From contig CAYJED010000001.1 of NCBI GenBank assembly GCA_964369115.1, positions 67,732-131,731 of the forward strand: a DNA stretch of 64,000 nucleotides, written 5' to 3'. Shown here one piece after another: positions 32,822-46,690 of the stretch; positions within the stretch are counted from its first letter, which is position 1; each line of letters starts with the position of its first letter. The translations under genes were made by a program, and so were the position numbers. Below the pieces are notes generated by a model that saw only the letters and a program-made list of their open reading frames with translations, did no database searches and was not told the origin of the DNA. The DNA is from an uncultured Candidatus Saccharibacteria bacterium. GTDB lineage: Bacteria; Patescibacteriota; Minisyncoccia; Phycocordibacterales; UBA5272.

Positions 32822-32893
32822 TCCGCGATAGCTCAGCGGTAGAGCAGCGCGCTGTTAACGCGTTGGTCGTAGGTTCGATCCCTACTCGCGGAG
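32822..32893 (+). tRNA. tRNA-Asn (anticodon GTT)
   Basis: Cloverleaf read by hand: acceptor tccgcga/tcgcgga, D arm gctc-agcggta-gagc, anticodon stem gcgcg/cgcgt with loop ctGTTaa, T arm gtagg-ttcgatc-cctac, discriminator G. No encoded CCA. Confidence 0.85.
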
Positions 32894-32895
32894 CA
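32877..32895 (+). repeat. 19-nt tRNA 3'-end core (gatccctactcgcggagca), copy 1 of a direct repeat (att-like)
   Basis: Identical 19-mers recur at 46886-46904 and 48309-48327. Degenerate copies lie at 49547-49560 and about 46727-46745. Confidence 0.8.
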
Positions 32896-34570
32896 TAGTA
32901 GAAAAAACATCTCTTTTAAGGGATGTTTTTTCATTTAACCCTTGTGTATCAAAGTTTAATTTAGGTTCGAACTCTGGAAAATTCACTCTCATACCTTTTA
33001 CTCCATCAATGAGTGCTTGTGTTGCTTTTGACCAAGTAATACAAAGGTTTTCTTCGTCCCAAACTAGGTTCGAACCCAGTGCAAAAAGCACCTTCCTTTT
33101 GTGATCTAATGACCCATTTTTAAGCACTTCTGCAATTGATTCAGAGAAACCGACAATCTCGTTTAACTTAGACATCCAGTCAATATCATCTGCATTTTTC
33201 TTCTTTGAGACATGCTTGTAACGCTGTTCAATATCAGCAAGGTCGGCATTGTATTCGTCGTTAGTTATTTGTTGATTACGAAGCATTGCACGTGCGTGAA
33301 GTTTCTCTTCGTTGTACTTCTTTTTATCTTCTTCAATATTTATTTCTGCAGTAAGAGCATCCTGAAAATCACCATCTTTAAGTTGATATAAATTCGCCTT
33401 TGACCAATCAGCAAGATCAGAGGATATAGGAAAGTCAGAAATCGCAACAGAAATCAGTTCCTTAGTTATGTTTTTCTCAGTAATAGACTTATACGACTGA
33501 CGAGACTTCTTCTTACGATTGTCGTAGTGATATGAATACTCAAGAAGTTTAGGAGAAACCATTTGAGGTATATCAGTGCCACATGTAGGACAAATGGTAG
33601 ACAGAGTACAAGAAAACTTACGCTTACAGTCACATATGACCTGTAATTTAACGTCCTGAGCCAAAACATGTCCCAGTGGAGACCTTACGAGACCAGAATA
33701 CAGAGTCTTGTGATCCTGAACTTTAGGAAGCGAATGCTGACCAAGTAGACGTAGAATCTTCACATGTTCAGACTCGGTTATAATACGAGGTAGAGATTTG
33801 TGAAGTTCGTAACGCTCACCACCATAAAAGAAGAAACCTGCATAAATAGGATCCTTGAGAATCTCATAGATACGAGACCTCATGATAGGCATACCACCAC
33901 TTCTACCTCGTGCGACAGTAGTAAGGCCAAGTTCACCAACTGCGTAGTCGTACAACTTACCACCAGTAAAACCTCCTTCAAGAAACTTTCTTAATAAAAG
34001 ATTTATTTTATTCAAACGAACCTTATCAACCTTCCATTTACGATTACCTTTCTCTTCAGACTTATCATTAAGAAAACCAAGAGTAGCAACACCGTGAGGA
34101 AAACCCAAAGATGCTTTCTTAGTCTGACCTCTTTTAACATTCACAGAAAGATCACGAACGAATTGATTAGCAGAACCAAACTCAACCGACATCAAAATAG
34201 TGTTCTCACTACTGTGATAAATCTTGTTGGGAGTAATAATGCACTTAATGGTCCCACGCTGTAGCATGTCCATTATAACCCCACCATCAATCATGTTACG
34301 GGCCAAGCGATCAATTTTCCAACATACAATGCTGTCATATTTACCATTCTTAATATCTTTAATCATTTGAGTAAAAACAGGTCTCTTGTTGGACATCTTA
34401 CCTGACTTAGACTCTTTGAGGACATCAAGAATCTTAATACCAAACTGACTCGCTATCTTTTTATTTTCATCAACTTGAGAGTCGATAGATAACATTTGCC
34501 TTTCTTCTGACTCAGAAGACTTACGATTGTAATTCACTGCTTTCAACTCACCATAATTTATTTCATACAT
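32882..34570 (-). CDS. Large serine recombinase (integrase)
   Basis: N-terminal resolvase catalytic domain (AVNYNRKSSESEERQMLSIDSQ; WKIDRLARN), recombinase domain, Cys-rich zinc ribbon (CDCKRKFSC...CPTCG) and coiled coil. The last codons overlap the tRNA 3' end. Confidence 0.85.
   Translation of the reverse strand: MYEINYGELKAVNYNRKSSESEERQMLSIDSQVDENKKIASQFGIKILDVLKESKSGKMSNKRPVFTQMIKDIKNGKYDSIVCWKIDRLARNMIDGGVIMDMLQRGTIKCIITPNKIYHSSENTILMSVEFGSANQFVRDLSVNVKRGQTKKASLGFPHGVATLGFLNDKSEEKGNRKWKVDKVRLNKINLLLRKFLEGGFTGGKLYDYAVGELGLTTVARGRSGGMPIMRSRIYEILKDPIYAGFFFYGGERYELHKSLPRIITESEHVKILRLLGQHSLPKVQDHKTLYSGLVRSPLGHVLAQDVKLQVICDCKRKFSCTLSTICPTCGTDIPQMVSPKLLEYSYHYDNRKKKSRQSYKSITEKNITKELISVAISDFPISSDLADWSKANLYQLKDGDFQDALTAEINIEEDKKKYNEEKLHARAMLRNQQITNDEYNADLADIEQRYKHVSKKKNADDIDWMSKLNEIVGFSESIAEVLKNGSLDHKRKVLFALGSNLVWDEENLCITWSKATQALIDGVKGMRVNFPEFEPKLNFDTQGLNEKTSLKRDVFSTMLRE
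32902..32931 (+). terminator. Terminator hairpin downstream of the tRNA
   Basis: aaaaaacatc / gatgtttttt perfect 10-bp stem with a 10-nt loop. Confidence 0.45.
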
Positions 34571-35407
34571 ATATTTTTCATATTAATTAGTTTGTAAACA
34601 AAAATGAGGTAACGACGTTTAACTTTAAGTTGCTACACCAAGTCGTCATTACCTCGTTTTTATCGACAAAATTTGAGTCATTTCCGCCCCACTTGTTCCG
34701 TTCTCTGTCTTCTTACGGTTCTTATGGTTCGTATCTGCTCAATCTTGTTACTTGGTGTAGCATTTGTATTTGTCACTTAACTCTCGAATCTTTGCAAGTA
34801 TTAAGTGATTCCAATTGATAGGAAAGGAGCACAGCCCCCCTTACCCCCCAAGGAAACTTTTAGTAATCTAGGGGGAGATGTTGAAACTTGTATCCGTTTT
34901 CTCTCGGAGTTTCTTAGTATCATTCTTTGCTACACATGTAGCATTGTTACTCCGCTATTCGTTGATACTTTTCCATCGGTACGAATAACTTATTTAGAGG
35001 CGATTCCACGTTGATGAGGGATCCTCGCACTCCGCAATTTAACCAAAGGGCCTTACTCGAAGGGTGGCTTGCGGAATTAGCCCGACCAGTCCTTCTCGTG
35101 TGAATAGAGTCAATTTCTTGACTCTGGTTTGATTACCAAAATTGATAATAAAACCAGAATTAAGAAGCAAGTACTTTTACTTTTAAGTGTTCTGCTGTTA
35201 CCACTAGTAATGCGTTACCAATCTCTTGAACATCGTCGTCAGACAATGGATCGCAAAAATTACAACCAAAGGATTTATTCAATGCTGTTCTGAGATCTTG
35301 AATTGATTTGATTGATAACTTCATAATAAAAACACCATAGTGTTACTATGGTTATATCAACATATGAAAAATGCCTACAGTCAGTTATCTGTAGACAGTT
35401 AAGTGAC

Positions 35408-36504: not shown

Positions 36505-36904
36505 TCCAATTGATGTGCTGAAAGTAGAGACTGATATAACAGTAAGAAACTCGGTGAAAACAGATTCAAAAAAATTGAATAGTAATTTCTGTACAGAAAT
36601 CGAGACCGTATAAACACGGATAAAACTCGGTGAAATTAATAGTGGCTCTAATTGATATACAGAAAGTGAGACCATCTAAACTTGGAATAAACTTGGTAAA
36701 AAATTACAGTAACCCAATTGATATAGTGAAAGTGAGCCCAGTTATAACAGGAGAAAACTCGGTGAAATACTGAAAGTTTAGATTGAAATAACAAATTAAA
36801 ACTCGACAAAAACAAATTCATAAATATAGTAGCCAGAATTTCAGTACTGAAATTGACACCGTTAGAATACGGTGAAAACTCGGTGAAAATTACTTCTGTG
36901 ATCC
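36505..36904. repeat. Non-coding tandem array of about 5 structured repeat units (64-144 nt)
   Basis: The constant 14-mer AAACTCGGTGAAA occurs at 36548, 36624, 36757 and 36876, with variants at 36690 and 36799. Each unit has an [A/T-rich palindromic arm]-GAAAG-TGAGNCC head, e.g. perfect palindromes tttctgtacagaaa (36585-36598) and aatttcagtactgaaatt (36838-36855). Each unit also has a short hairpin with compensatory stem changes (ccgt/acgg, caccgt/acggtg, actg/cagt, cca/tgg). No ORF. Confidence 0.8.
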
Positions 36905-37168
36905 AAGTAGAATGTACTTAGCCAAGAATTTTAGGCCTCCGATAAGTACAAGGTACCCGAGGAGAGCCAGAAAAAATTCATAGTGAAAACCGTCTGTGAT
37001 CCAAATGTAAATACTGAAAATTAGTCCAACCCAAAATGGTATTCCAAGTATAAAATAGATAACCTTAAAGGATCTATAAAGCGGTGTATTTTTTGTATCT
37101 GTAGTCATAATGATGAAATACAGAGTACCTACGTAAAAACAAAATAGGCACCCCATAGAGGTGCTCAC
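36890..37168 (-). CDS. Possible small membrane protein (about 70-92 aa)
   Basis: Hydrophobic ORF with 2-3 predicted TM helices. No SD identified. Confidence 0.3.
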   Translation of the reverse strand: MSTSMGCLFCFYVGTLYFIIMTTDTKNTPLYRSFKVIYFILGIPFWVGLIFSIYIWITDGFHYEFFLALLGYLVLIGGLKFLAKYILLGSQK

Positions 37169-37286
37169 ATATCAATAACTTTCGTTACCAATCATGTTTC
37201 CTCATAGGATGCCTATGCTGTGCACGATTGGTAACGAAATAAGCACATTAAAATGCTGATTTTGAAAAACTTATTGATATGTGAGC
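37163..37286. repeat. Long nested inverted repeat (imperfect hairpin/cruciform of about 124 nt)
   Basis: Outer 16-bp perfect IR gctcacatatcaataa (37163-37178) / ttattgatatgtgagc (37271-37286). Inner 14/15 IR ctttcgttaccaatc (37179-37193) / gattggtaacgaaa (37226-37239). Central catagg / cctatg (37203-37217). A 30-nt asymmetric insert lies in the right arm. Confidence 0.8.
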
Positions 37287-37364
37287 AAGTACATAATACC
37301 ACAAAACATTGATATCTCATAGGGTATTAGACGTAAGTTGTTCACAAGTGCCTTAACTTGGTGC

Positions 37365-37393
37365 TTGACAAAGTTAAAGTAAAGGTATATACT
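37365..37393 (+). promoter_or_regulatory. Putative sigma70-type promoter upstream of the fic gene
   Basis: TTGACA (37365-37370), 17-nt spacer, TATACT (37388-37393). Confidence 0.45.
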
Positions 37394-37422
37394 TTAACTA
37401 TAAAAATAAATAAGTAAAAGAA

Positions 37423-38592: not shown

Positions 38593-40575
38593 ATGGAAAA
38601 CTTCAATCAAAAAACTTCAATGATCTGGAACGTAGCCGACATACTACGTGGTGGATGGAAACAACACGAATACCAAGATGTAATCTTGCCACTTGTGGTG
38701 CTTAAGAGACTGGACTCTATTCTTACAGATACCAAACAAGCAGTACTCAACAAAAACGATGAGTATCAAGGAAAAATCAATGATTTAGACCCAATCCTAA
38801 AACGTACTTCAAAAGTAGAGTTCTACAACATATCAGCATATGACTTCAAACTACTTCTTAGTGATCCAAAGAATATTGCAAAAAACTTCAGACTCTACAT
38901 AACTGGATTCAGTAAGAATATTCAAGATATATTCGAGAAATTCAACTTCAATGTGCAACTAGAAAGACTGGAGGGTGGTGACATGTTGTTCTTGGTAATT
39001 CAAGAGTTAAACAAGATAGACCTACACCCATCAAAAGTAGATAACTATCAAATGGGACACATCTTCGAAGAACTCCTTCGTAAGTTCTCTGAAATGTCTA
39101 ACGAGACCGCTGGAGAGCACTACACACCAAGAGATGTAATCAATACAATGGTTGAGATACTCTTGTCTCCAGATGCAAAGGAACTAAAAAAGCCACATGT
39201 TATCAAAAAAATATACGATCCTGCTTGTGGTACAGGTGGAATGCTTACAACTGCAAAAGATTACATTATCGACAAAGTAAACAAAGAAGCAGATATATTC
39301 CTGTACGGTCAAGAACTAAACTCAGTCACATACGCTATAGCAAAATCAGACATCCTTATAAAGGGTGAAAATCCAGACTTGATACGTGGAGGAGAAAAGG
39401 ATCACTCACTTGCAAGTACGCTTTCCAACGATCAATTCTTTGGAGAGGTATTTGACTATGGAATTTCAAATCCTCCATACGGAGTAGACTGGAAGAAAGA
39501 TAAAGATGCAGTAGATCGTGAAGCATCACGTGGATACGCAGGCAGATTCGGAGCAGGTACGCCTCGTATATCAGATGGTCAGTTGCTATTCATGGAGCAT
39601 CTTGTCTCAAAAATGAAACCAGAAAGTGATGGAGGTTCTCGTATTGCAGTAGTTCATAATGGGTCACCTCTCTTCACTGGTGATGCAGGTAGCGGAGAAA
39701 GTGAAATACGTAGATGGATACTTGAGAAAGATTTACTAGAAACAATAGTGGCACTCCCTGATCAACTTTTCTATAACACAGGTATCAATACATACCTTTG
39801 GTTCGTATCAAATAGAAAATCAAAAGAAAGAAAAGGTAAAGTACAACTCATAGATGCACGTAACTTCTACAAGAAGATGCGTAAGAGTCTCGGCAATAAA
39901 CGCCACGAGATAGATACAGATTCTCAAAAGAAAATATTTGATCTATACAATTCATTTGAAGAAAATGAGCATTCAAAGATATTCAATACTACCGACTTTG
40001 CATACCGACAAATACAAATTGAAAGACCTCTAAAACTTTCATTTGATTTCAACGATGAAAAAATAAAAGAACTGCTAGTGCTATTTTCTACAGATACAGA
40101 TAAATCAGGTATCAAGTCGTTCATAGAATCCTTCAAGGGAGAAACTTATAACGACAGAAAGAAACTTGAGGATATTATAACCAAGCGTTCAAAAGAGTTC
40201 ATCACTGGAAAACTTGGAGCGGGAGTAATAAAGAAGTTTATTTTACTCTCTGGGACCAAAGATGAGAATGCAGAAACCTGTGTGGACAAAGATGGTAACC
40301 CTGAAGCCGATGGTGACTTACGTGATCACGAGAATGTGCCCTACGGCACCGACGTGAAGGAATACTTCGACAAAGAAGTAAAACCTTATATTAGTGATGC
40401 ATGGATCAATGAATCGGTCCGAGACCACAAGGATAATCAGGTGGGTGTAGTTGGCTACGAAATACCCTTCACAAGATACTTCTATAAGTATGAAGCACCG
40501 AGAAGTCTTGAAGCAATAGAAAAAGATATTGAAGAGGTCGAAAATGAACTTCTAACCTTGCTTAAGCAATTATAA
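38593..40575 (+). CDS. hsdM: Type I restriction-modification system methyltransferase subunit
   Basis: HsdM N-terminal domain, SAM-binding region and NPPYG catalytic motif (ISNPPYGVDW). 660 aa with a C-terminal extension. Confidence 0.9.
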   Translation: MENFNQKTSMIWNVADILRGGWKQHEYQDVILPLVVLKRLDSILTDTKQAVLNKNDEYQGKINDLDPILKRTSKVEFYNISAYDFKLLLSDPKNIAKNFRLYITGFSKNIQDIFEKFNFNVQLERLEGGDMLFLVIQELNKIDLHPSKVDNYQMGHIFEELLRKFSEMSNETAGEHYTPRDVINTMVEILLSPDAKELKKPHVIKKIYDPACGTGGMLTTAKDYIIDKVNKEADIFLYGQELNSVTYAIAKSDILIKGENPDLIRGGEKDHSLASTLSNDQFFGEVFDYGISNPPYGVDWKKDKDAVDREASRGYAGRFGAGTPRISDGQLLFMEHLVSKMKPESDGGSRIAVVHNGSPLFTGDAGSGESEIRRWILEKDLLETIVALPDQLFYNTGINTYLWFVSNRKSKERKGKVQLIDARNFYKKMRKSLGNKRHEIDTDSQKKIFDLYNSFEENEHSKIFNTTDFAYRQIQIERPLKLSFDFNDEKIKELLVLFSTDTDKSGIKSFIESFKGETYNDRKKLEDIITKRSKEFITGKLGAGVIKKFILLSGTKDENAETCVDKDGNPEADGDLRDHENVPYGTDVKEYFDKEVKPYISDAWINESVRDHKDNQVGVVGYEIPFTRYFYKYEAPRSLEAIEKDIEEVENELLTLLKQL

Positions 40576-40579
40576 TTAT

Positions 40580-41782
40580 ATGAAAGAAGAAACAAAAAAT
40601 ATAATATGCCCTGAATGCGGAACATCAATATCAATCGATGATGCTTTAACGCACCAGATTGAAAACAAACTCAAGAAAGAATATGAGGACAAAGAAAAAT
40701 CAATAAGAGAATCTATTGAAAAAGAATCTTCAAAGAAACTTGAGCAAGATAAGGTAGAAATGGAAAAGAAATTAAAAGCACAGGTCCTAAAAGATACTGA
40801 GGCAGAAAAGGTAGCATCCAATGAAAAAAATAAACTCCTTGAAGAACAACTTGCTGATAAAGAGGCAAAACTAAAAGAAGCACGTCAGAATGAAGTTGCT
40901 CTCATAAAAGAGAAGCAGAAACTAAAGGATGATCAGGAGGCATTCGAATTAGAAAAGACACGCCAACTTGCAGAGGAAAGAAAGCAAATAGAAGAAGATG
41001 CTTCAAGGAAAGCCACTGATGCAAAGCAATCTGAAATCGATCAACTTAACAAGAAACTATCTGATGCTACAAAAGCAAAAGATGAATTAGCAAGAAAACT
41101 AGAACAAGGGTCACAGCAGACCCAAGGCGAGGTCCAAGAACTGGCCCTAGAAGAACTCCTTAAGGAGGCATTCATCTATGACGACGTATCTCCTGTTGGA
41201 AAAGGTGTTACTGGTGCAGACGTTATACAAACTGTCAAAACAAAGTCTGGTGTTGAATGCGGGAAAATAATCTGGGAATCAAAGAAAACTAAAACATGGA
41301 CCGAGGGATGGATACAGAAATTGAAAGATGACCAGAGACAGGTTAAAGCAGATCTTGCGGTTATTGTTACATCTGCTATGCCTCAAGGAACTAGTGGTAT
41401 CACCCAGAAAGATGGTGTATGGATTTGTGATATCAAATTGGCTCTATCAATAGCAACACTACTGAGACACTCACTTGAGACAGTAGCCAGAGAAAAGTCT
41501 ATGTCTGTAGGTAAGAATGAGAAAGTTGAAATCCTATACGCATACCTCACAGGCACAGAGTTCAAACAAAGAATCGAAGTGATAGTAGAGACATTTTCTA
41601 GTATGAAAACTTCTCTTGATAAAGAGAAACTTTACTTCACCAAAACTTGGGCAGAAAAAGAGAAACAAATAGATCGAGTTATACAAAATACTGTAGGCAT
41701 CTACGGTGATCTTAGCGGTGTCGTTCAATTGCAAAAAATTGAGTCACTTGAATTACCAAGCGGAGTAGATAAAGAAGAATAA
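40580..41782 (+). CDS. Zn-ribbon + long coiled-coil + C-terminal putative PD-(D/E)xK-like domain protein (DUF2130-like) embedded in the R-M operon
   Basis: CPECGTSI zinc ribbon, about 200 aa of K/E-rich coiled coil, and a C-terminal GADVIQTV...KIIWESKKTK segment compatible with D...ExK nuclease core motifs. Confidence 0.55.
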   Translation: MKEETKNIICPECGTSISIDDALTHQIENKLKKEYEDKEKSIRESIEKESSKKLEQDKVEMEKKLKAQVLKDTEAEKVASNEKNKLLEEQLADKEAKLKEARQNEVALIKEKQKLKDDQEAFELEKTRQLAEERKQIEEDASRKATDAKQSEIDQLNKKLSDATKAKDELARKLEQGSQQTQGEVQELALEELLKEAFIYDDVSPVGKGVTGADVIQTVKTKSGVECGKIIWESKKTKTWTEGWIQKLKDDQRQVKADLAVIVTSAMPQGTSGITQKDGVWICDIKLALSIATLLRHSLETVAREKSMSVGKNEKVEILYAYLTGTEFKQRIEVIVETFSSMKTSLDKEKLYFTKTWAEKEKQIDRVIQNTVGIYGDLSGVVQLQKIESLELPSGVDKEE

Positions 41783-41783
41783 T

Positions 41784-43070
41784 ATGCAAACACTCAAACT
41801 CACAAAAAAATATGAGACATACCCTGAATACAAAGATTCGGGTGTTGAGTGGTTGGGTATGATTCCGAAAGATTGGAAATACAAAAAACTAAAATCATTT
41901 TTCTCACTAAGTAATGAAAAAGTTGCTGAGAATCCAGAAATCACAACCATTCTTTCTGTCTCAGGTTACAGAGGTGTAGAAATTAGAAAAAATACTGAGA
42001 CTTTTGATGGACAAATGCCATCAGAAAATGTTGATGCATATAGAATTGTAAGAAAAAACCAACTAGTAGTTAATACTATGTGGCTTAACTTTACTGGACT
42101 GGGTGTATCAAATTATGAAGGGTACGTTAGTCCTGCATATAGGGCGTACAACATATCGAAAGAAATGCTCCCAGAATATGTAAATCATTTAATGAGATCT
42201 ACTGCTTATGTTCAAAAATATTCTAGTCTATTATACGGAATGCGACCAAATTCTCTTCAGGTGAAGCCGTATGATTTCGAAAAGATTGAAATATTGTATC
42301 CAGATATAAAAGAACAAAAACGTATTTCAATGTACCTTGATAAAAAAACTACTCTCATTGATCAGATAATAGAAAGAAAAGAAGCACTAATTGTTATCTT
42401 ACGGGAAAAAAGAAATGCTACGATAAGCAAGCAAATAGTTGAAAATACTGGAAAAGATTGGAAAGTTAAAAAAATTAAGCACCTAGTTAAATCAATTGAA
42501 TCTGGAATATGGGGAGACAATCCATTATCTAATAAAGATGACATTAAGTGTTTACGTATTGCTGATTTTGATTATGACAACTTCAGTTACTCTACAGTTG
42601 AAACAATAAGGAATAATTCAAACCTACAGGAAAGAAAGGTTCTCAGAAAAGGAGATATTCTTATGGAAAAATCTGGTGGCGGTGAAAAGACTCCAGTCGG
42701 TCGTGCGATATTGTTTTCCTCTGACGAAAGAATGGTTTGTGCAAACTTTATAGATAAAGTACGTGTTGATAAAGAAAAAATACTCCCAGAGTTCTTAGTC
42801 CTATACCTATCGGTGCTTTATGCAGGTAGAGTAAACACAAAATATATTAAACAAAACACTGGTATCCAGAATATGGATATTAAAGAATACTTTGGAGAGA
42901 ATATTTCCTACCCTGATATTAAAACCCAGAAAAATTTAACGGAATTTGTTAACGCTAAGATTAGTGCTTTTAACAAAGCAATTTCTGATGTAGAAAAAAC
43001 CATTGAAACATTAAAGGAGTTCAAGACTTCTCTTATTTCCAATGCAGTAACAGGAAAAATCAAAGTATAA
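41784..43070 (+). CDS. hsdS: Type I R-M specificity subunit
   Basis: Two target-recognition-domain halves separated and followed by conserved coiled-coil regions. 428 aa. Placed between hsdM and hsdR. Confidence 0.85.
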   Translation: MQTLKLTKKYETYPEYKDSGVEWLGMIPKDWKYKKLKSFFSLSNEKVAENPEITTILSVSGYRGVEIRKNTETFDGQMPSENVDAYRIVRKNQLVVNTMWLNFTGLGVSNYEGYVSPAYRAYNISKEMLPEYVNHLMRSTAYVQKYSSLLYGMRPNSLQVKPYDFEKIEILYPDIKEQKRISMYLDKKTTLIDQIIERKEALIVILREKRNATISKQIVENTGKDWKVKKIKHLVKSIESGIWGDNPLSNKDDIKCLRIADFDYDNFSYSTVETIRNNSNLQERKVLRKGDILMEKSGGGEKTPVGRAILFSSDERMVCANFIDKVRVDKEKILPEFLVLYLSVLYAGRVNTKYIKQNTGIQNMDIKEYFGENISYPDIKTQKNLTEFVNAKISAFNKAISDVEKTIETLKEFKTSLISNAVTGKIKV

Positions 43071-43074
43071 ATAT

Positions 43075-43707
43075 ATGGCAAAAATTGAGATAAACAAAAC
43101 ACACATAGACGCACTAAAGAAACAGAAAAGGACTGTGGGTCTTTTGCAATTTCAAAATAGAGACGATCAAAACTTTTCAAAATGGTATTCACTTACAGAA
43201 AACTTGATAATTAAATCTTTTGGACAAAAGTCTAATCAACTTGGGCAACTTACATCCCTATATCATAAAATGCCAAGAACCGAAGACTTAAAGTATGAAT
43301 TTGATAGAGGTAGATTGGATATAAAAGATTGTAAAGAAAAATTAAAAGACTTGCTTGAAAACTTAATAGCCGAACTGGAATTGGATCTTGCTTCTGAAAA
43401 TGAAGACACAAAAGATAAGCCAACCAAAAAAGGTACATCTATAAAGATCAAAAATAGTCAAACGCAAACGCAAACCATAAATATTACACTGACAATAGAT
43501 CAAATAATTAATAGAATTAAAGAAACAGAATCAGACCCACAAAGAGTCTCGGAAGCAGAAGTAAAATTAAAAGAATTAGATTCTGAATTAAAATCAAAAT
43601 CTCCAGTATGGTCGAAAGTAAAAGACGCTCTAATATGGTTACTGAATTTCGGAAGAGACACATTTTTACAGGTCTTACCCATTATCTTAGAAAGATACAA
43701 ACAGTAA
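43075..43707 (+). CDS. Hypothetical protein (210 aa) between hsdS and hsdR
   Basis: ORF with tight spacing to its neighbours (4-5 nt gaps). Predicted helical; no known motifs. Confidence 0.5.
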   Translation: MAKIEINKTHIDALKKQKRTVGLLQFQNRDDQNFSKWYSLTENLIIKSFGQKSNQLGQLTSLYHKMPRTEDLKYEFDRGRLDIKDCKEKLKDLLENLIAELELDLASENEDTKDKPTKKGTSIKIKNSQTQTQTINITLTIDQIINRIKETESDPQRVSEAEVKLKELDSELKSKSPVWSKVKDALIWLLNFGRDTFLQVLPIILERYKQ

Positions 43708-43708
43708 T

Positions 43709-46690
43709 ATGAAAACACTAACAAACACAAAAGAATCAGGATTCGAAGAGTTCATACAAAATGAACTTGAGAAGATGCATGGATACAAAATCCGCTCATC
43801 ACATCTCTATGACAAGAAACTCTGTATGGATACAGAACTTGTTATTGAGTTCATAGAAAAAACCCAACCTCAAGCATGGGAGAAACTTTCTGAACAGTAT
43901 GGAGAGAACGTAAAGGCAAAAGTTCTGCAGAGAATAGACGAGGAAGTAGACTCACGTGGGATACTCTCAGTATTTCGTGAGGGCATCACAGATAGAGGTG
44001 TGCGTTTCAAACTTGCATTCTTACAACCACAGAATGATTTGAATCCAGAACTAATGCAGGAATATGCTGGGAATATTTTGAGCGTGACTCGCCAAGTGAA
44101 GTACAGTGAGCAGAATGAGAACTCGCTCGACGTGGTCCTATTTATAAATGGATTACCAGTATTCACTCTCGAACTTAAGAATCAATTCACAGGTCAGAAT
44201 GTTATACACGCTATCCATCAATACAAAACAAGTCGAGACCAAAAGGAGAAACTTTTGTCGTTTAAGCGATGCATCACACACTTTGCAGTTGATACAGATC
44301 AAGTGTATATGACAACTCGTCTTACTGGACTCACTACGTACTTTTTACCTTTCAACAAAGGAGACAAAGGTTCATCTGGTAACCCGACAGCACCTGAGGG
44401 TAAATACAAAACTCATTACTTGTGGGAAGAGATTTTCTCAAAGGATATGGTGTTTGATTTGATTGGAAATTTCATACAAGATGTCACTGAAGAAAAAGTA
44501 GATAAGAATGGAAAGAAGCGAAAAGAAGAGAAACTTATCTTCCCTCGATATCATCAACTAGATACTGTGAACCGAATACTAACTCATGTAAAAGCAAATG
44601 GGACTGGTAATAACTACCTCATACAACACAGTGCAGGATCAGGGAAAAGTAATACTATCGCTTGGACCGCACACCGTTTGGCGGAATTACACGATCAAAG
44701 CAATAAACCGATTTTTGATGGGGTTATAGTGGTTACCGACCGAAGAGTGCTAGATAGCCAGTTGTCGGCCACTGTGGACAGTTTTAGCCAAGTTGGAGGG
44801 GTCGTAAAGCACGTAGAGAGTTCTGCTGACCTCAAAGGAGCACTTGAGGGTGGAGTTAAGATCATTACGAGTACTCTACAGAAATTCCCAGTTATCGTTA
44901 GTTCTATAGAAAAGACTGAGGGTAGAAAATTTGCTGTTATCGTTGATGAAGCACACTCGTCACAGTCAGGAGAAAGTTCAGCGGATTTGAGACAGGTGCT
45001 TACTCTTGATGATGCTGTAACGCAAGAAGAAAAAGAAGAGAAGTTATTTAAGACAGTCGAAGATCTTCTTAATGAAAGAATGAAATCAAGAAAGGTTACT
45101 TCACCGAACCTGAGTTTTTTTGCATTTACGGCTACACCAAAACAAAAGACAATTGAACTCTTTGGAACTCAAGATGTGGTTACAGGTAAATTCATCCCTT
45201 TTTCTCTTTATTCAATGAAACAAGCGATTGAAGAAAAGTTCATCTTAGATGTGCTTAAAAACTACACAACCTACGAAACATACTTCGGTCTCTTAAAGAA
45301 GATTGAAGATGACCCAGAGTTCAATAAGAAAAAGGCACAGAGACTACTAATTGGATATGTAGAAAGAAATGAACATGCGATCTTGAAAAAGGTAGCAATC
45401 ATGACTGAGCATTTCGAACAGAAGATCTCAAAACTAATTGGAGGTAAAGCCAAGGCAATGATAGTAACTAAATCACGTTTACATGCCGTGAGATATAAAC
45501 TTGCCTTCGATGCTTACTTAAAGGAAAAAGGTTATGAGCATAAATCCCTTGTTGCTTTCTCTGGTAGTGTTGTTGATCCTGATACAAAACTTGAATATAC
45601 AGAAACTCAAATGAATCATATTCCAGAAAGCCAAACTGCTGAAGAATTCAAGAAAGATGAGTACAAATTCTTAATTGTTGCAGAGAAGTTTCAGACTGGA
45701 TTTGATCAACCGTTACTATCTGCAATGTATGTAGATAAGAAATTAGGAGGCGTAAATGCTGTGCAGACTCTTTCTCGTTTGAACCGCACAACATACGGAA
45801 AAGAAGATACTTTTGTACTAGACTTCTTTAACAAGACAGACGATATCAAGGAAGCATTCCAACCGTACTATACTACTACCGTACTTTCTGAAGCGACAAA
45901 TCCTAACTTATTACATAACCTCGAAAGAGAAGTTCGTGGGTTCAAGTTGTTTACCGACTTTGAGTTGAATGGATTTGTGGAAGAACTCTTTGGAGGTGCA
46001 ACCCCAGACAAACTAAATCACATAATAGATGTGATAGTTGAAAGAGCATTATCCGAAAAAGATGCGGAAGAAATTGAAAGTTTCAAGTCAGTAATTTATG
46101 ACTACTTGAAGAAGTATTCATTTATCTCACAGATCGTAACCTTTGAGGACCCTCAACTAGAGAAGTTGTATATATTCCTAAAGTTCTTGATAAAGAAACT
46201 TCCAAGACGAGAAAACCCTCTGCCAGTAGAGGTCCTTGAGGCAATTGATATGGAAACATACAAGATAGATAAAAAAGGAGAAACTGATGTGATGCTTGAA
46301 AATAAAGATGGAGAACTAGACCCTATGACTGGTGGAGGTGGTAAAAAAACTGGAGGAGATGAAGAGGAAGATGCATTATCTAAGATAATTAAGGAGATAA
46401 ATGAACGATACGGAACAAACTTTAGCGATAATGACAAAGTTATACTTAATGACCTAAGTGCAAAACTACTAAAGAGTACAATTCTTCAAGGTTCAATACA
46501 AAACAACAGTAAGGATTCTGCGAAGTTGAAGTTCGATCAACTCTTCCAAGACGAACTAGTTGGGATGCTTGATAACCACTTTAACCTCTACCAGAAACTG
46601 GACCAAAGCCCAGAATTAAAGAAATTCGTACAGGAGAAAGTCTTTGAACATGTGGTAAAGAAGATGAACACCAATAAAACAAAGGATTAA
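43709..46690 (+). CDS. hsdR: Type I restriction enzyme R subunit
   Basis: N-terminal nuclease domain, SF2 helicase motifs (HSAGSGKSNT Walker A; VIVDEAHSSQ DEAH box), C-terminal domain. 993 aa. Confidence 0.9.
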   Translation: MKTLTNTKESGFEEFIQNELEKMHGYKIRSSHLYDKKLCMDTELVIEFIEKTQPQAWEKLSEQYGENVKAKVLQRIDEEVDSRGILSVFREGITDRGVRFKLAFLQPQNDLNPELMQEYAGNILSVTRQVKYSEQNENSLDVVLFINGLPVFTLELKNQFTGQNVIHAIHQYKTSRDQKEKLLSFKRCITHFAVDTDQVYMTTRLTGLTTYFLPFNKGDKGSSGNPTAPEGKYKTHYLWEEIFSKDMVFDLIGNFIQDVTEEKVDKNGKKRKEEKLIFPRYHQLDTVNRILTHVKANGTGNNYLIQHSAGSGKSNTIAWTAHRLAELHDQSNKPIFDGVIVVTDRRVLDSQLSATVDSFSQVGGVVKHVESSADLKGALEGGVKIITSTLQKFPVIVSSIEKTEGRKFAVIVDEAHSSQSGESSADLRQVLTLDDAVTQEEKEEKLFKTVEDLLNERMKSRKVTSPNLSFFAFTATPKQKTIELFGTQDVVTGKFIPFSLYSMKQAIEEKFILDVLKNYTTYETYFGLLKKIEDDPEFNKKKAQRLLIGYVERNEHAILKKVAIMTEHFEQKISKLIGGKAKAMIVTKSRLHAVRYKLAFDAYLKEKGYEHKSLVAFSGSVVDPDTKLEYTETQMNHIPESQTAEEFKKDEYKFLIVAEKFQTGFDQPLLSAMYVDKKLGGVNAVQTLSRLNRTTYGKEDTFVLDFFNKTDDIKEAFQPYYTTTVLSEATNPNLLHNLEREVRGFKLFTDFELNGFVEELFGGATPDKLNHIIDVIVERALSEKDAEEIESFKSVIYDYLKKYSFISQIVTFEDPQLEKLYIFLKFLIKKLPRRENPLPVEVLEAIDMETYKIDKKGETDVMLENKDGELDPMTGGGGKKTGGDEEEDALSKIIKEINERYGTNFSDNDKVILNDLSAKLLKSTILQGSIQNNSKDSAKLKFDQLFQDELVGMLDNHFNLYQKLDQSPELKKFVQEKVFEHVVKKMNTNKTKD

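What the first reader, a model, noticed from the sequence alone, without database searches (positions are those of the whole stretch)
37157..37289. 124-nt triple-nested inverted repeat between the repeat array and the fic promoter
The outer stem is a perfect 16-bp IR, the inner stem a 14/15-bp IR, and the centre a catagg/cctatg IR (coordinates in features). The right arm carries a 30-nt insertion containing its own small stem.

Such a long, almost perfect palindrome in a compact genome is rare. It could be a cruciform-forming recombination or transfer site (oriT/att), a strong bidirectional terminator, an sRNA, or an operator for the downstream Fic module, whose putative promoter lies at 37365-37393.
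Basis: seen in the sequence. Interest (0 to 1): 0.6.

Follow-up and report, generated by a model that had tools for sequence, protein, structure and literature searches.

The report
Structured leader RNA before toxic genes
The long nested palindrome is the DNA copy of a roughly 150-base, tightly folded RNA with its own promoter and terminator, and it belongs to an undescribed RNA family of ultra-small (Patescibacteria) bacteria that sits directly in front of restriction-modification and membrane-protein genes and probably keeps them switched off.

Summary
The inverted repeat is real: outer arms 37162-37182/37267-37287, inner arms 37180-37196/37223-37239, centre CATAGG/CCTATG, fold z about -8.5.

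It is not tied to fic. It is a promoter-to-terminator unit on the minus strand, 37286 to 37135. I found 21 distinct full-length homologues, all from metagenomes and Patescibacteria MAGs. Each has:
- an extended -10 promoter 6 nt before the hairpin base;
- a U-tract terminator;
- a co-oriented gene starting 20-54 nt downstream. Twelve of 22 are R-M methyltransferases; the rest are small membrane or secreted proteins, here a 72-aa two-helix protein.

The long hairpin keeps 97.9% pairing, with compensatory changes in 16 of 32 pairs. G·U pairs outnumber A·C 51 to 2, so selection acts on the minus-strand RNA.

Without its 5' arm, the 3' half refolds in all 21 sequences into a second conserved shape (P1+P2). 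The two shapes exclude each other. The start codon is usually buried in a hairpin.

An Rfam c4-2 match (31 bits, below threshold) is not reproduced in homologues, so this is a new family.

Best reading: a self-locked attenuator leader for toxic cargo genes. The trigger is unknown.

The parts
37293..37320 (-). Promoter of the RNA: extended -10 (T37301 G37300 n TATTAT 37298-37293) with a weak -35-like ATGAGA (37320-37315)
   Evidence: Promoter scan. The motif TTTTGnTAnAnT lies 6 nt before the hairpin base in all 21 homologues.
37135..37286 (-). The RNA itself (~150 nt), from the predicted start G37286 to the end of the U-tract
   Evidence: CM R1 hit at 136.6 bits; the plus strand scores only 14.9 bits. 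Alignment A1.
37270..37286 (-). 5' arm segment b1 (GCUCACAUAUCAAUAAG); pairs with b'
   Evidence: Helix 1 has 14 pairs, 7 with compensatory change, 99% of cells paired.
37240..37269 (-). Insertion in the 5' arm with its own small hairpin. Its sequence varies between homologues, but a hairpin is present in W-type relatives.
   Evidence: read from the alignment.
37223..37239 (-). 5' arm segment a1 (UUUCGUUACCAAUCGUG); pairs with a'
   Evidence: Helix 2 has 13 pairs, 9 with compensatory change, 96% of cells paired.
37197..37222 (-). Conserved apical cap CACAGCAUAGGCAUCCUAUGAGGAAA. It contains the central CAUAGG/CCUAUG hairpin (37203-37217) and the 5' strand of the alternative helix P1 (37200-37216).
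37163..37196 (-). 3' arm core a'-b'. It pairs with a1/b1 in fold A, or folds on itself as hairpin P2 (37167-37197, GAAA loop) in fold B.
   Evidence: P2 is the predicted MFE in all 21 sequences, mean z = -2.8, with 5 compensatory pairs.
37135..37164 (-). Intrinsic terminator: stem GCACCUC/GGGGUGC (37164-37148) followed by CUAUUUUGUUUUU. The stretch 37144-37161 is also the 3' strand of the alternative helix P1.
   Evidence: Terminator scan. The stem is invariant in all 21 sequences. P1 counts.
37121..37132 (-). Box X2 (GUAGGUACUCUG) just after the U-tract; complementary to the terminator 3' half Y (GGGGUGCCUAU)
   Evidence: Duplex energy -15.1 kcal/mol, matched by no later window. The same holds in 19 of 21 loci.
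36890..37108 (-). Downstream gene: a 72-aa protein that reads as two hydrophobic helices (holin-like). Its AUG (37108-37106) is base-paired in the predicted fold of the spacer.
   Evidence: Conserved at 67-71% identity in two other protein clusters. Start-codon pairing. An endolysin-like gene lies next to it in L004.

Best explanation
The palindrome is the DNA image of a ~150-nt RNA transcribed from the minus strand (37286 to 37135). The RNA is also the 5' leader of the gene that follows.

An extended -10 promoter starts transcription exactly at the base of a long hairpin. In this hairpin a 75-nt 5' arm (b1, insertion, a1) base-pairs with a 34-nt core (a'-b') under a conserved 26-nt cap. A GC-rich hairpin plus U-tract then ends most transcripts.

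Transcripts that read through carry box X2. X2 pairs either with the terminator's 3' half or with the start-codon region, so the AUG is normally buried.

The 5' arm works as a built-in antisense lock. Without it, the 3' half refolds into a different conserved shape: a long-range helix P1 plus hairpin P2. The two shapes cannot coexist.

I infer that the element is a multi-layer OFF switch (attenuator plus translational lock) for genes that are dangerous to express. Here that gene is a holin-like membrane protein; in relatives it is a restriction-modification operon. I also infer that a change between the two folds sets how much read-through and translation occurs. That change could come from processing of the 5' arm or from a trans-acting factor.

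Shown here: the RNA, its strand, both folds, and the promoter, terminator and gene arrangement. Inferred: the regulatory logic and the trigger.
For: Conservation and arrangement
- 21 distinct full-length homologues plus 2 truncated ones, in Patescibacteria MAGs and metagenomes.
- All have the extended -10 motif 6 nt upstream of the hairpin base and an invariant terminator.
- Every locus with downstream sequence has a co-oriented ORF starting 20-54 nt after the U-tract.

Fold A (long hairpin)
- 97.9% of cells paired, 16 of 32 pairs with compensatory change, 83 such cells, 0 of 500 shuffles as good. Slid controls give 32-48%.

Strand
- G·U 51 cells in 11 pairs against A·C 2 cells in 2 pairs.
- The sense strand is more stable in 20 of 21 sequences.

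Fold B (P1+P2)
- It is the MFE of the 3' half in all 21 sequences.
- The core alone has mean z = -2.8, while the 5' arm alone has z near 0.
- P2: 89.6% paired, 5 compensatory pairs.
- P1: 94.7% paired, 4 compensatory pairs, and correlated complementary insertions in L041 and L066.
- Window versus L022: the U-to-C change in b' breaks a fold-A pair but restores a P2 pair.

Downstream control
- Fold A is favoured by 8-22 kcal/mol in the full-length RNA.
- The start codon is paired in 21 of 22 spacers.
- X2 is complementary to Y in 19 of 21 loci.
- Downstream genes: 12 of 22 are R-M methyltransferases (for those scanned against Pfam, the rest by reading the N-termini). The others are small membrane or secreted proteins.
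Against: - No expression data. The promoter, transcript ends and termination are predictions.
- Both folds end in a helix followed by the U-tract, so it is unclear which state allows read-through.
- No ligand, protein or trans-RNA trigger was identified.
- Thermodynamically the OFF state always wins.
- P1 is mostly invariant sequence, so its covariation support is thin: 8 cells.
- The sequences fall into a few clades, so cell counts overstate the number of independent events.
- The RNA could equally be an abundant stand-alone sRNA that merely sits upstream of genes.
Confidence: 0.5

Rival explanations
1. A stand-alone, trans-acting antisense RNA of the c4 type. The primary transcript would be an inactive pro-RNA. 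Removing the 5' arm (by RNase P, RNase III or self-cleavage) would release the 3' domain (P1+P2). That domain would then repress transcripts carrying sequences like the 5' arm, for example nascent copies of the same or a related element, giving autoregulation or immunity.
For: - Rfam c4-2 (clan CL00128) hit on the minus strand at 37216-37142: 31.2 bits, E = 1e-4 in a 521-nt search, with matching P1, UAUG/CUAU loop, GAAA-capped hairpin and U tail.
- The c4 locus of phage P1 also has segments upstream of c4 (a1, b1) that are complementary to c4, and a 73-aa gene right after it.
- c4 RNAs are processed from longer precursors (PMC5320573).
- Fold B is conserved.
Against: - The score is below the gathering threshold (41 bits).
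- Homologues L009, L003 and L073 give no c4-2 hit even at E <= 10 in 6 kb, and none reaches the gathering score in 13 loci.
- Only one internal hairpin is present, not two.
- In fold B almost nothing is single-stranded, since the P2 loop is 4 nt.
- No a2/b2-type target was found within ±8 kb in any locus.
- The 3' end lacks a CCA-like tail.
Confidence: 0.22
2. A DNA-level site: a cruciform or att/oriT recombination or transfer site, a palindromic operator for the divergent fic promoter, or a MITE.
For: - A long near-perfect palindrome lies in an island that has a serine recombinase next to a tRNA gene.
- L009 shows a recombination breakpoint inside the element's conserved 3' end.
- The element sits at the border between conserved backbone and variable cargo.
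Against: - G·U against A·C asymmetry (51:2) and sense-strand stability are not expected for duplex or cruciform DNA, or for symmetric protein binding.
- Orientation relative to the promoter, the U-tract and the downstream gene is fixed in all loci.
- The element occurs without fic and without the recombinase.
- There is one copy in the window.
- No GTTRRRY/RYYYAAC attC cores are present (read).
- No relaxase was seen among the scanned neighbours.
Confidence: 0.05
3. A single-stranded-DNA element that folds only when the island is single-stranded, such as a single-strand origin or a single-strand promoter used during transfer or transformation.
For: - The folding is strand-specific, and G·T wobbles are tolerated in ssDNA.
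- The island backbone carries a replication module: a DnaD-like loader in L001 and an iteron-like array.
- Single-strand origins likewise conserve structure plus a few loop motifs (own knowledge).
Against: - The conserved extended -10 box lies outside the hairpin, at a fixed 6-nt distance, and there is a conserved U-tract. Neither has a role in an sso.
- Tight coupling to the next start codon.
- Many loci are ordinary R-M operons with no replication genes nearby.
Confidence: 0.05
4. Nothing more than a strong promoter-proximal 5' stabilising hairpin plus an ordinary terminator, with no switching function.
For: The hairpin starts at +1, which would block 5'-end-dependent decay. The terminator is canonical. 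A precedent is the upstream helix of pAD1 par RNAI, cited in PMC3874152.
Against: - This does not explain the conservation of the cap sequence across Patescibacteria classes.
- It does not explain the second conserved fold of the 3' half, which the 5' arm lacks.
- It does not explain the X2 box complementary to both the terminator and the start region.
Confidence: 0.1

Closest known systems
c4 antisense RNA family (Rfam clan CL00128: C4 RF01695, c4-2 RF02944, c4-a1b1 RF03163) of phages P1/P7
   Same: - A short RNA made from its own promoter, directly upstream of the genes it precedes.
- A long closing helix P1 enclosing internal hairpin(s).
- Upstream segments complementary to the interior of the RNA (a1/b1 in P1).
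- A small gene right after it (icd, 73 aa; here 72 aa).
- A sub-threshold c4-2 match in the window.
   Different: - The Rfam threshold is not met, and homologues do not match at all.
- One internal hairpin instead of two.
- The upstream complement is 30+ bp and forms a stable hairpin, instead of two 7-8-nt boxes.
- No downstream a2/b2 target over the ribosome-binding site.
- Found in Patescibacteria rather than Proteobacteria and their phages.
Antisense-RNA-driven transcription attenuation in plasmid rep leaders (pT181, pIP501/pAMbeta1) - own knowledge
   Same: The leader has mutually exclusive pairings of consecutive segments that decide whether a terminator just before the gene is used. It belongs to a mobile element.
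   Different: Those systems have a separate countertranscript gene on the opposite strand. Here no antisense promoter was found, and the 'antisense' is the RNA's own 5' arm.
Lambda late leader PR'-6S RNA-tR' in front of the holin gene S (Q antitermination) - own knowledge
   Same: A constitutive-looking promoter, a short terminated leader RNA, then immediately a lysis-type gene. In L004-L008 the following genes are an endolysin-like gene plus the 2-TM protein.
   Different: No Q-like protein or qut site was identified. The lambda leader is not a conserved long hairpin. Most relatives here precede R-M genes, not lysis genes.
5' UTR locks of type I toxin mRNAs (hok fold-back inhibition; pAD1 par RNAI upstream helix; reviewed in PMC3874152)
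   Same: The mRNA of a small hydrophobic or toxic product is kept inert by intramolecular helices. These bury the 5' end and the start region, and activation needs processing or refolding.
   Different: No antitoxin antisense RNA gene. The element carries its own terminator before the ORF. It also precedes large R-M operons.
Known regulators of R-M systems: C proteins, methyltransferase autorepression, reverse-promoter antisense RNAs of EcoRI/Eco29kI (PMC3874152, PMC3141266)
   Same: The presumed purpose is the same: tight control of a toxic R-M operon carried on mobile DNA.
   Different: The review holds no mention of riboswitches and only one each of 'leader', 'terminator' and 'attenuat'; none of the passages shown describes a cis-acting structured leader for an R-M system.

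Membership tests
c4-2 RNA (Rfam RF02944) | Score at or above the curated gathering threshold (41 bits) | tested here: not met
   31.2 bits in the window. No hit at gathering score in the window or in 13 homologous loci.
c4-2 RNA (Rfam RF02944) | The match is reproduced in homologues of the element | tested here: not met
   L009, L003 and L073 give no c4-2 hit at E <= 10 in a 6-kb search. None was found in a 59-kb search either.
c4-2 / C4 RNA | Closing helix P1 enclosing two hairpins (P2, P3) | tested here: not met
   P1 is present, with 94.7% of cells paired. Only one internal hairpin, P2, is predicted, in all 21 sequences.
C4 antisense RNA (RF01695) system of P1/P7 | [quoted passage not shown] | tested here: not met
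   No consistent complement to the core beyond the RNA's own 5' arm within ±8 kb in any locus. P1 reference annotation.
C4 antisense RNA system | Upstream boxes (a1/b1) complementary to the RNA's interior | tested here: met
   The 5' arm b1/a1 pairs with b'/a'. The pairing is 13-17 bp per box, against 7-8 nt in P1.
C4 antisense RNA system | Maturation by RNase P at the 5' end of P1 | not testable with these tools
   Needs cleavage assays or 5'-end mapping. Literature basis: PMC5320573.
Intrinsic (rho-independent) terminator | GC-rich stem-loop followed by a U-run on the transcribed strand | tested here: met
   Minus strand 37164-37148: 7 pairs, 5 of them GC, then CTATTTTGTT. Invariant in 21 homologues. 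No T-run follows the hairpin on the plus strand.
MITE / dispersed repeat | Many dispersed copies per genome, in no fixed relation to genes | tested here: not met
   One copy in the 64-kb window. At most two were seen per contig or MAG. Every locus with downstream sequence has the element 20-54 nt upstream of a co-oriented ORF.
Integron attC site | R''/R' core sites (RYYYAAC ... GTTRRRY) at the base of the hairpin, with an IntI tyrosine recombinase nearby | tested here: not met
   The hairpin base is GCWSACA/UGUSWGC. The only recombinase nearby is a serine recombinase.
Operator of the Fic module | Co-occurrence with fic in related loci | tested here: not met
   The element is present without fic in L001 and in all the L-type and other R-M loci.
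Cis-regulatory attenuator leader | Promoter, mutually exclusive conserved folds and a terminator, all directly upstream of a co-oriented gene | tested here: met
   The dependence of read-through on the fold is not shown.
Cis-regulatory attenuator leader | A signal (ligand, protein, RNA or ribosome) that switches the folds | tested here: inconclusive
   No conserved leader peptide: AUG after GAGGAAAC in only 9 of 21 sequences. No antisense promoter. No trans target. No conserved neighbouring protein was noted by reading the ORFs.

The most novel reading that the evidence does not exclude
The element is a self-masked 'pro-RNA' cassette used by mobile elements of Patescibacteria. The 5' arm keeps a c4-like 3' domain inert. 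After processing (possibly autocatalytic), the freed parts would pair with the matching arms of nascent leaders from the same or a related element. That would drive the nascent leaders into the strongly terminating P1 fold. The result would be RNA-only feedback, and incompatibility or immunity between elements, controlling R-M and lysis genes with no protein regulator.
Probability: 0.15. Interest if true: 0.8.

Novelty: new variant of a known kind. Interest (0 to 1): 0.62.

Why it matters
Patescibacteria make up a large share of bacterial diversity, yet almost nothing is known about how they regulate genes.

This is a strongly supported structured RNA family that is absent from Rfam 15. It occurs in several Patescibacteria lineages and lies directly in front of restriction-modification operons and lysis-type membrane proteins on mobile islands.

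If it controls those genes, it would be an RNA-based way of taming toxic defence cargo, beside the protein and reverse-promoter antisense regulators that the review I consulted describes for R-M systems (PMC3874152).

It has two conserved, mutually exclusive folds and a built-in antisense arm. That makes it a compact natural example of a self-locked RNA switch, and it can be tested now that Saccharibacteria can be manipulated genetically (title and abstract of PMC10633639, listed; paper not read).

Tried and rejected
- **BLAST.** blastn of 36880-37420 against the phage and plasmid collections found nothing.
- **Viral contigs.** Two pattern scans found nothing.
- **Rfam at gathering thresholds.** Only a tRNA was found in the window.
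- **Rfam at permissive thresholds.** The c4-2 lead from the window was not reproduced in the homologous loci.
- **Trans targets.** I searched ±8 kb of every locus for a second site complementary to the core, like a2/b2 of phage P1. Only scattered 9-13-nt chance matches turned up.
- **Array as target.** The ATATCAAT similarity between the window's b1 arm and the neighbouring repeat array looked like possible target sites. L001 keeps the array motif with a different b1, so I dropped the idea.
- **Leader peptide.** The AUG after GAGGAAAC is present in only 9 of 21 sequences, and that position covaries as part of helix a1:a'.
- **Internal promoter.** No conserved -10 box exists in the 5' arm that could make a 5'-truncated RNA (read).
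- **Antisense promoter.** None was found inside the element.
- **K-turn in the cap.** The internal-loop sequence does not fit a K-turn (read).
- **TIGR array.** The neighbouring array has a ~66-nt period, against 36-nt TIGR units, and no Nop-domain protein is nearby.
- **Hypervariable specificity arms.** The flanking genes are equally diverged (the small protein is 67-71% identical), so ordinary divergence under a structural constraint is enough to explain the arms.
- **Pseudoknot combining both folds.** Rejected on geometry: a 1-nt linker would have to span a ~33-bp helix.
- **Host organism.** The exact-sequence look-up returns no organism names.

Full report
**Observation.** The nested inverted repeat exists as described.
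- The repeat finder gives outer arms 37162-37182 / 37267-37287 (21 nt, 95%) and inner arms 37180-37196 / 37223-37239 (17 nt, 94%).
- The centre holds CATAGG/CCTATG, and one arm carries a ~30-nt insertion.
- Either strand folds far better than shuffled sequence: z = -8.5 and -8.9, with 0 of 200 shuffles as good.
- The arms occur only once in the window.

**Context in the window.**
- A tRNA gene (32822-32893) abuts a 562-aa serine recombinase gene.
- Next come a 256-aa and a 91-aa protein with no Pfam match, and a ~66-nt-period repeat array.
- The palindrome follows. On the plus strand beyond it lie fic and a type I R-M operon: hsdM, DUF2130, hsdS, a 210-aa ORF, hsdR.
- The scan for signals was the first pointer away from fic. 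On the minus strand it found an extended -10 promoter (37320-37293) just upstream of the hairpin, and an intrinsic terminator (stem 37164-37148, then CTATTTTGTT) just after it.
- Downstream on that strand is a 72-aa ORF (37108-36890) that reads as two hydrophobic helices.

**Relatives.**
- The 72-aa protein has three relatives in the protein database (100%, 71% and 67% identity). Their contigs all carry the same element upstream.
- A pattern built from the invariant parts found real copies only in Patescibacteria/CPR MAGs: Saccharibacteria, Nomurabacteria, Parcubacteria, Minisyncoccia and unclassified bins. One further copy is in a MAG labelled Flavobacteriaceae. Ten metagenome contigs also carry it.
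- No copies were found in viral contigs, nor in the phage and plasmid collections.
- This gives 21 distinct full-length sequences of 141-155 nt, plus two truncated at contig ends.
- The window's organism could not be named. Its closest RNA relative, L022, is from a Patescibacteria MAG.

**It is an RNA of the minus strand.**
- All 21 sequences have TTTTGnTAnAnT placed 6 nt before the first paired base. All end in GCACCUC...GGGGUGCCUAUUUUGUUUUU.
- RNAalifold predicts the long hairpin from the alignment.
- On the named structure, 97.9% of 667 cells form pairs. Sixteen of 32 pairs show compensatory change (83 cells). No shuffle out of 500 reaches these values, and sliding the partner by 1-3 columns drops pairing to 32-48%.
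- The helices tolerate G·U (51 cells, 11 pairs) but almost never A·C (2 cells). The sense strand is more stable than its complement in 20 of 21 sequences. Duplex DNA, a cruciform or a symmetric protein site would not produce this asymmetry.
- Covariance model R1 finds one copy in the window at 37135-37286 (-), 136.6 bits.

**It is a leader.**
- Every locus with downstream sequence has a co-oriented ORF starting 20-54 nt after the U-tract.
- Twelve of 22 are DNA methyltransferases of R-M systems: N6_N4_Mtase, type III Mod followed by a helicase, and EcoRI-type methylase followed by a GmrSD/HNH protein. One search covers those scanned against Pfam; the others I assigned by reading the N-termini.
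- The rest are small membrane or secreted proteins. In L004-L008 an endolysin-like PG_binding_1 protein precedes the 2-TM protein, which makes the window's 72-aa protein holin-like.
- The element occurs without fic, so it is not a Fic operator.
- Two copies lie on one 130-kb contig (L066 and L068), each in front of a different R-M system.

**Two mutually exclusive conserved folds.**
- The permissive Rfam scan matched c4-2 RNA on the minus strand (37216-37142, 31.2 bits, threshold 41). It pairs AUAGGCAUCC...GAGG in the cap with CCUC...GGGGUGCCUAU in the terminator region.
- That long-range helix, P1, is 94.7% paired across the family. It is mostly invariant: 4 compensatory pairs, 8 cells. L041 and L066 carry correlated complementary insertions, UGUG with CACA/ACAC.
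- When the 5' arm is left out, all 21 sequences fold by minimum free energy into the same shape: P1 plus one hairpin, P2, formed by the core pairing with itself.
- The core alone folds well (mean z = -2.8), whereas the 5' arm, its near-complement, does not (z near 0). P2 relies on G·U pairs that become C·A in the other arm.
- P2 is 89.6% paired, with 5 compensatory pairs.
- Between the window and L022, a U-to-C change in b' creates one of the two A·C mismatches of fold A, yet restores a G-C pair in P2.
- P1 cannot coexist with the long hairpin, because a 1-nt linker would have to cross about 33 bp.
- In the full-length RNA the long hairpin wins by 8-22 kcal/mol.
- So the 5' arm acts as a built-in antisense lock on a 3' domain that has a shape of its own.

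**Beyond the terminator.**
- The 10-12 nt after the U-tract (box X2; window 37132-37121) are strongly complementary to the terminator's 3' half in 19 of 21 loci. Duplex energies are -10 to -17 kcal/mol, with essentially no equal in the next 400 nt.
- X2 also pairs with the start region. The AUG is base-paired in 21 of 22 predicted spacer folds.
- In the methylase loci the second codon varies only among CCU, CUU and UCU, which keeps pairing through G·U.
- Four consecutive boxes (cap X1, terminator Y, X2, start region Y2) are therefore alternately complementary. This is the layout of a classical attenuator.

**Mechanism: shown and inferred.**
- Shown: the RNA and its strand, the promoter/terminator/gene arrangement, both folds, and the start-codon hairpin.
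- Inferred: most transcripts stop at the terminator, read-through transcripts are translationally locked, and a change between folds sets the output.
- I could not identify the trigger. There is no conserved leader peptide (AUG after GAGGAAAC in 9 of 21 sequences), no antisense promoter, no second target site and no conserved neighbouring protein that I could see.
- P1 places its helix directly against the U-run, while the small terminator hairpin leaves a 4-nt spacer. Fold B may therefore be the stronger terminator, which would make the 5' arm an anti-terminator. This is conjecture.

**Comparison with known systems.**
- The c4 family is the nearest named relative. In phage P1 the 77-nt c4 RNA has a long P1 helix and two hairpins. 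It is cut from a precursor by RNase P. It has upstream a1/b1 boxes and downstream a2/b2 targets over the icd ribosome-binding site.
- The present RNA shares the closing helix, the upstream complement and the position before a small gene.
- It fails the Rfam threshold, and its homologues do not match at all. It has one internal hairpin, almost no single-stranded loop, and no downstream target.
- I therefore do not file it as a c4-2 member. A distant relationship, or convergent 'pro-RNA' logic, stays open.
- Functionally it also resembles three other things: plasmid rep-leader attenuators, the lambda PR'-tR' late leader in front of the holin gene, and the 5' UTR locks of type I toxin mRNAs.
- In the passages of the R-M regulation review that I read, RNA-based control takes the form of antisense RNAs from reverse promoters (EcoRI, Eco29kI). 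The term counts were 0 for 'riboswitch' and 1 each for 'leader', 'terminator' and 'attenuat', which gives no sign of a structured cis leader (PMC3874152).

**Verdict.** The 'sRNA' option is right, on the opposite strand from fic. The DNA-site, operator and bidirectional-terminator readings are not supported. The element founds a new, well-supported RNA family of Patescibacteria mobile islands, and its regulatory trigger remains to be found.

Noticed in passing
window 36507-36895 (also L001 6280-6660): Repeat array with a period of about 66 nt. Each unit has conserved flanks (AATTGATAT..GAAAGTGAGACC and AAAACTCGGTGAAA on the + strand) around a small hairpin of variable sequence. It lies between the 72-aa gene and the 256-aa gene, and it is conserved in L001 in front of the homologous 246-aa gene. 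It looks iteron-like. It does not fit TIGR arrays (36-nt units, Nop-domain protein).
   Followed up: partly
window 32822-34570; L001, L004: The island sits at a tRNA gene, which is overlapped by the end of a 562-aa serine recombinase gene. Its cargo differs between relatives. The window, L004 and L064 carry Fic plus type I R-M. L001 carries N6_N4 methylase, ResIII, PycTM and a cyclase (Pycsar-like). The RNA element marks the border between backbone and cargo.
   Followed up: partly
L009 1-595 versus window 37290-36800 (minus strand): L009 carries an L-type version of the RNA, fused to sequence that reads the same as the window from the terminator region onward (the 72-aa protein is 100% identical). 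This implies a recombination breakpoint inside the element's conserved 3' end.
   Followed up: partly
L034 and L036 (same MAG); L066 and L068 (same 130-kb contig): More than one copy of the element occurs per genome, each in front of a different R-M system. In L034 and L036 the copies sit at contig ends, as if the repeat had broken the assembly.
   Followed up: no
window 36890-37108 (-); L075, L076: The conserved 72-aa two-helix ORF was not called as a gene in the near-identical public contigs L075 and L076. In L004-L008 it directly follows an endolysin-like PG_binding_1 gene, which suggests a holin-endolysin pair.
   Followed up: partly
window 38593-46690 (+): The type I R-M operon has two extra genes: a DUF2130 gene between hsdM and hsdS, and an unannotated 210-aa ORF before hsdR. 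Fic is the first gene of the operon.
   Followed up: no
L016 2131-2363 (-), 3290-3790 (+): In the Nomurabacteria MAG, a group I intron (78 bits) and three tRNA genes lie within about 4 kb of the RNA element.
   Followed up: no
window 34570-35160; L001 7839-8558: L001 encodes a DnaD-like helicase loader (phrog_5708, E = 1.5e-62) in the island backbone. No ORF of 90 aa or more is listed in the window between 34570 and 35408, so that gene may be lost or decayed here.
   Followed up: no
L041 5905-6213, L035, L065 (upstream of the element): Several L-type loci share backbone genes upstream and divergent from the RNA: a ~455-aa protein, a DUF5659 protein, and a variable 250-740-aa protein with a similar N-terminus. 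This suggests a second type of mobile element that uses the same leader.
   Followed up: partly
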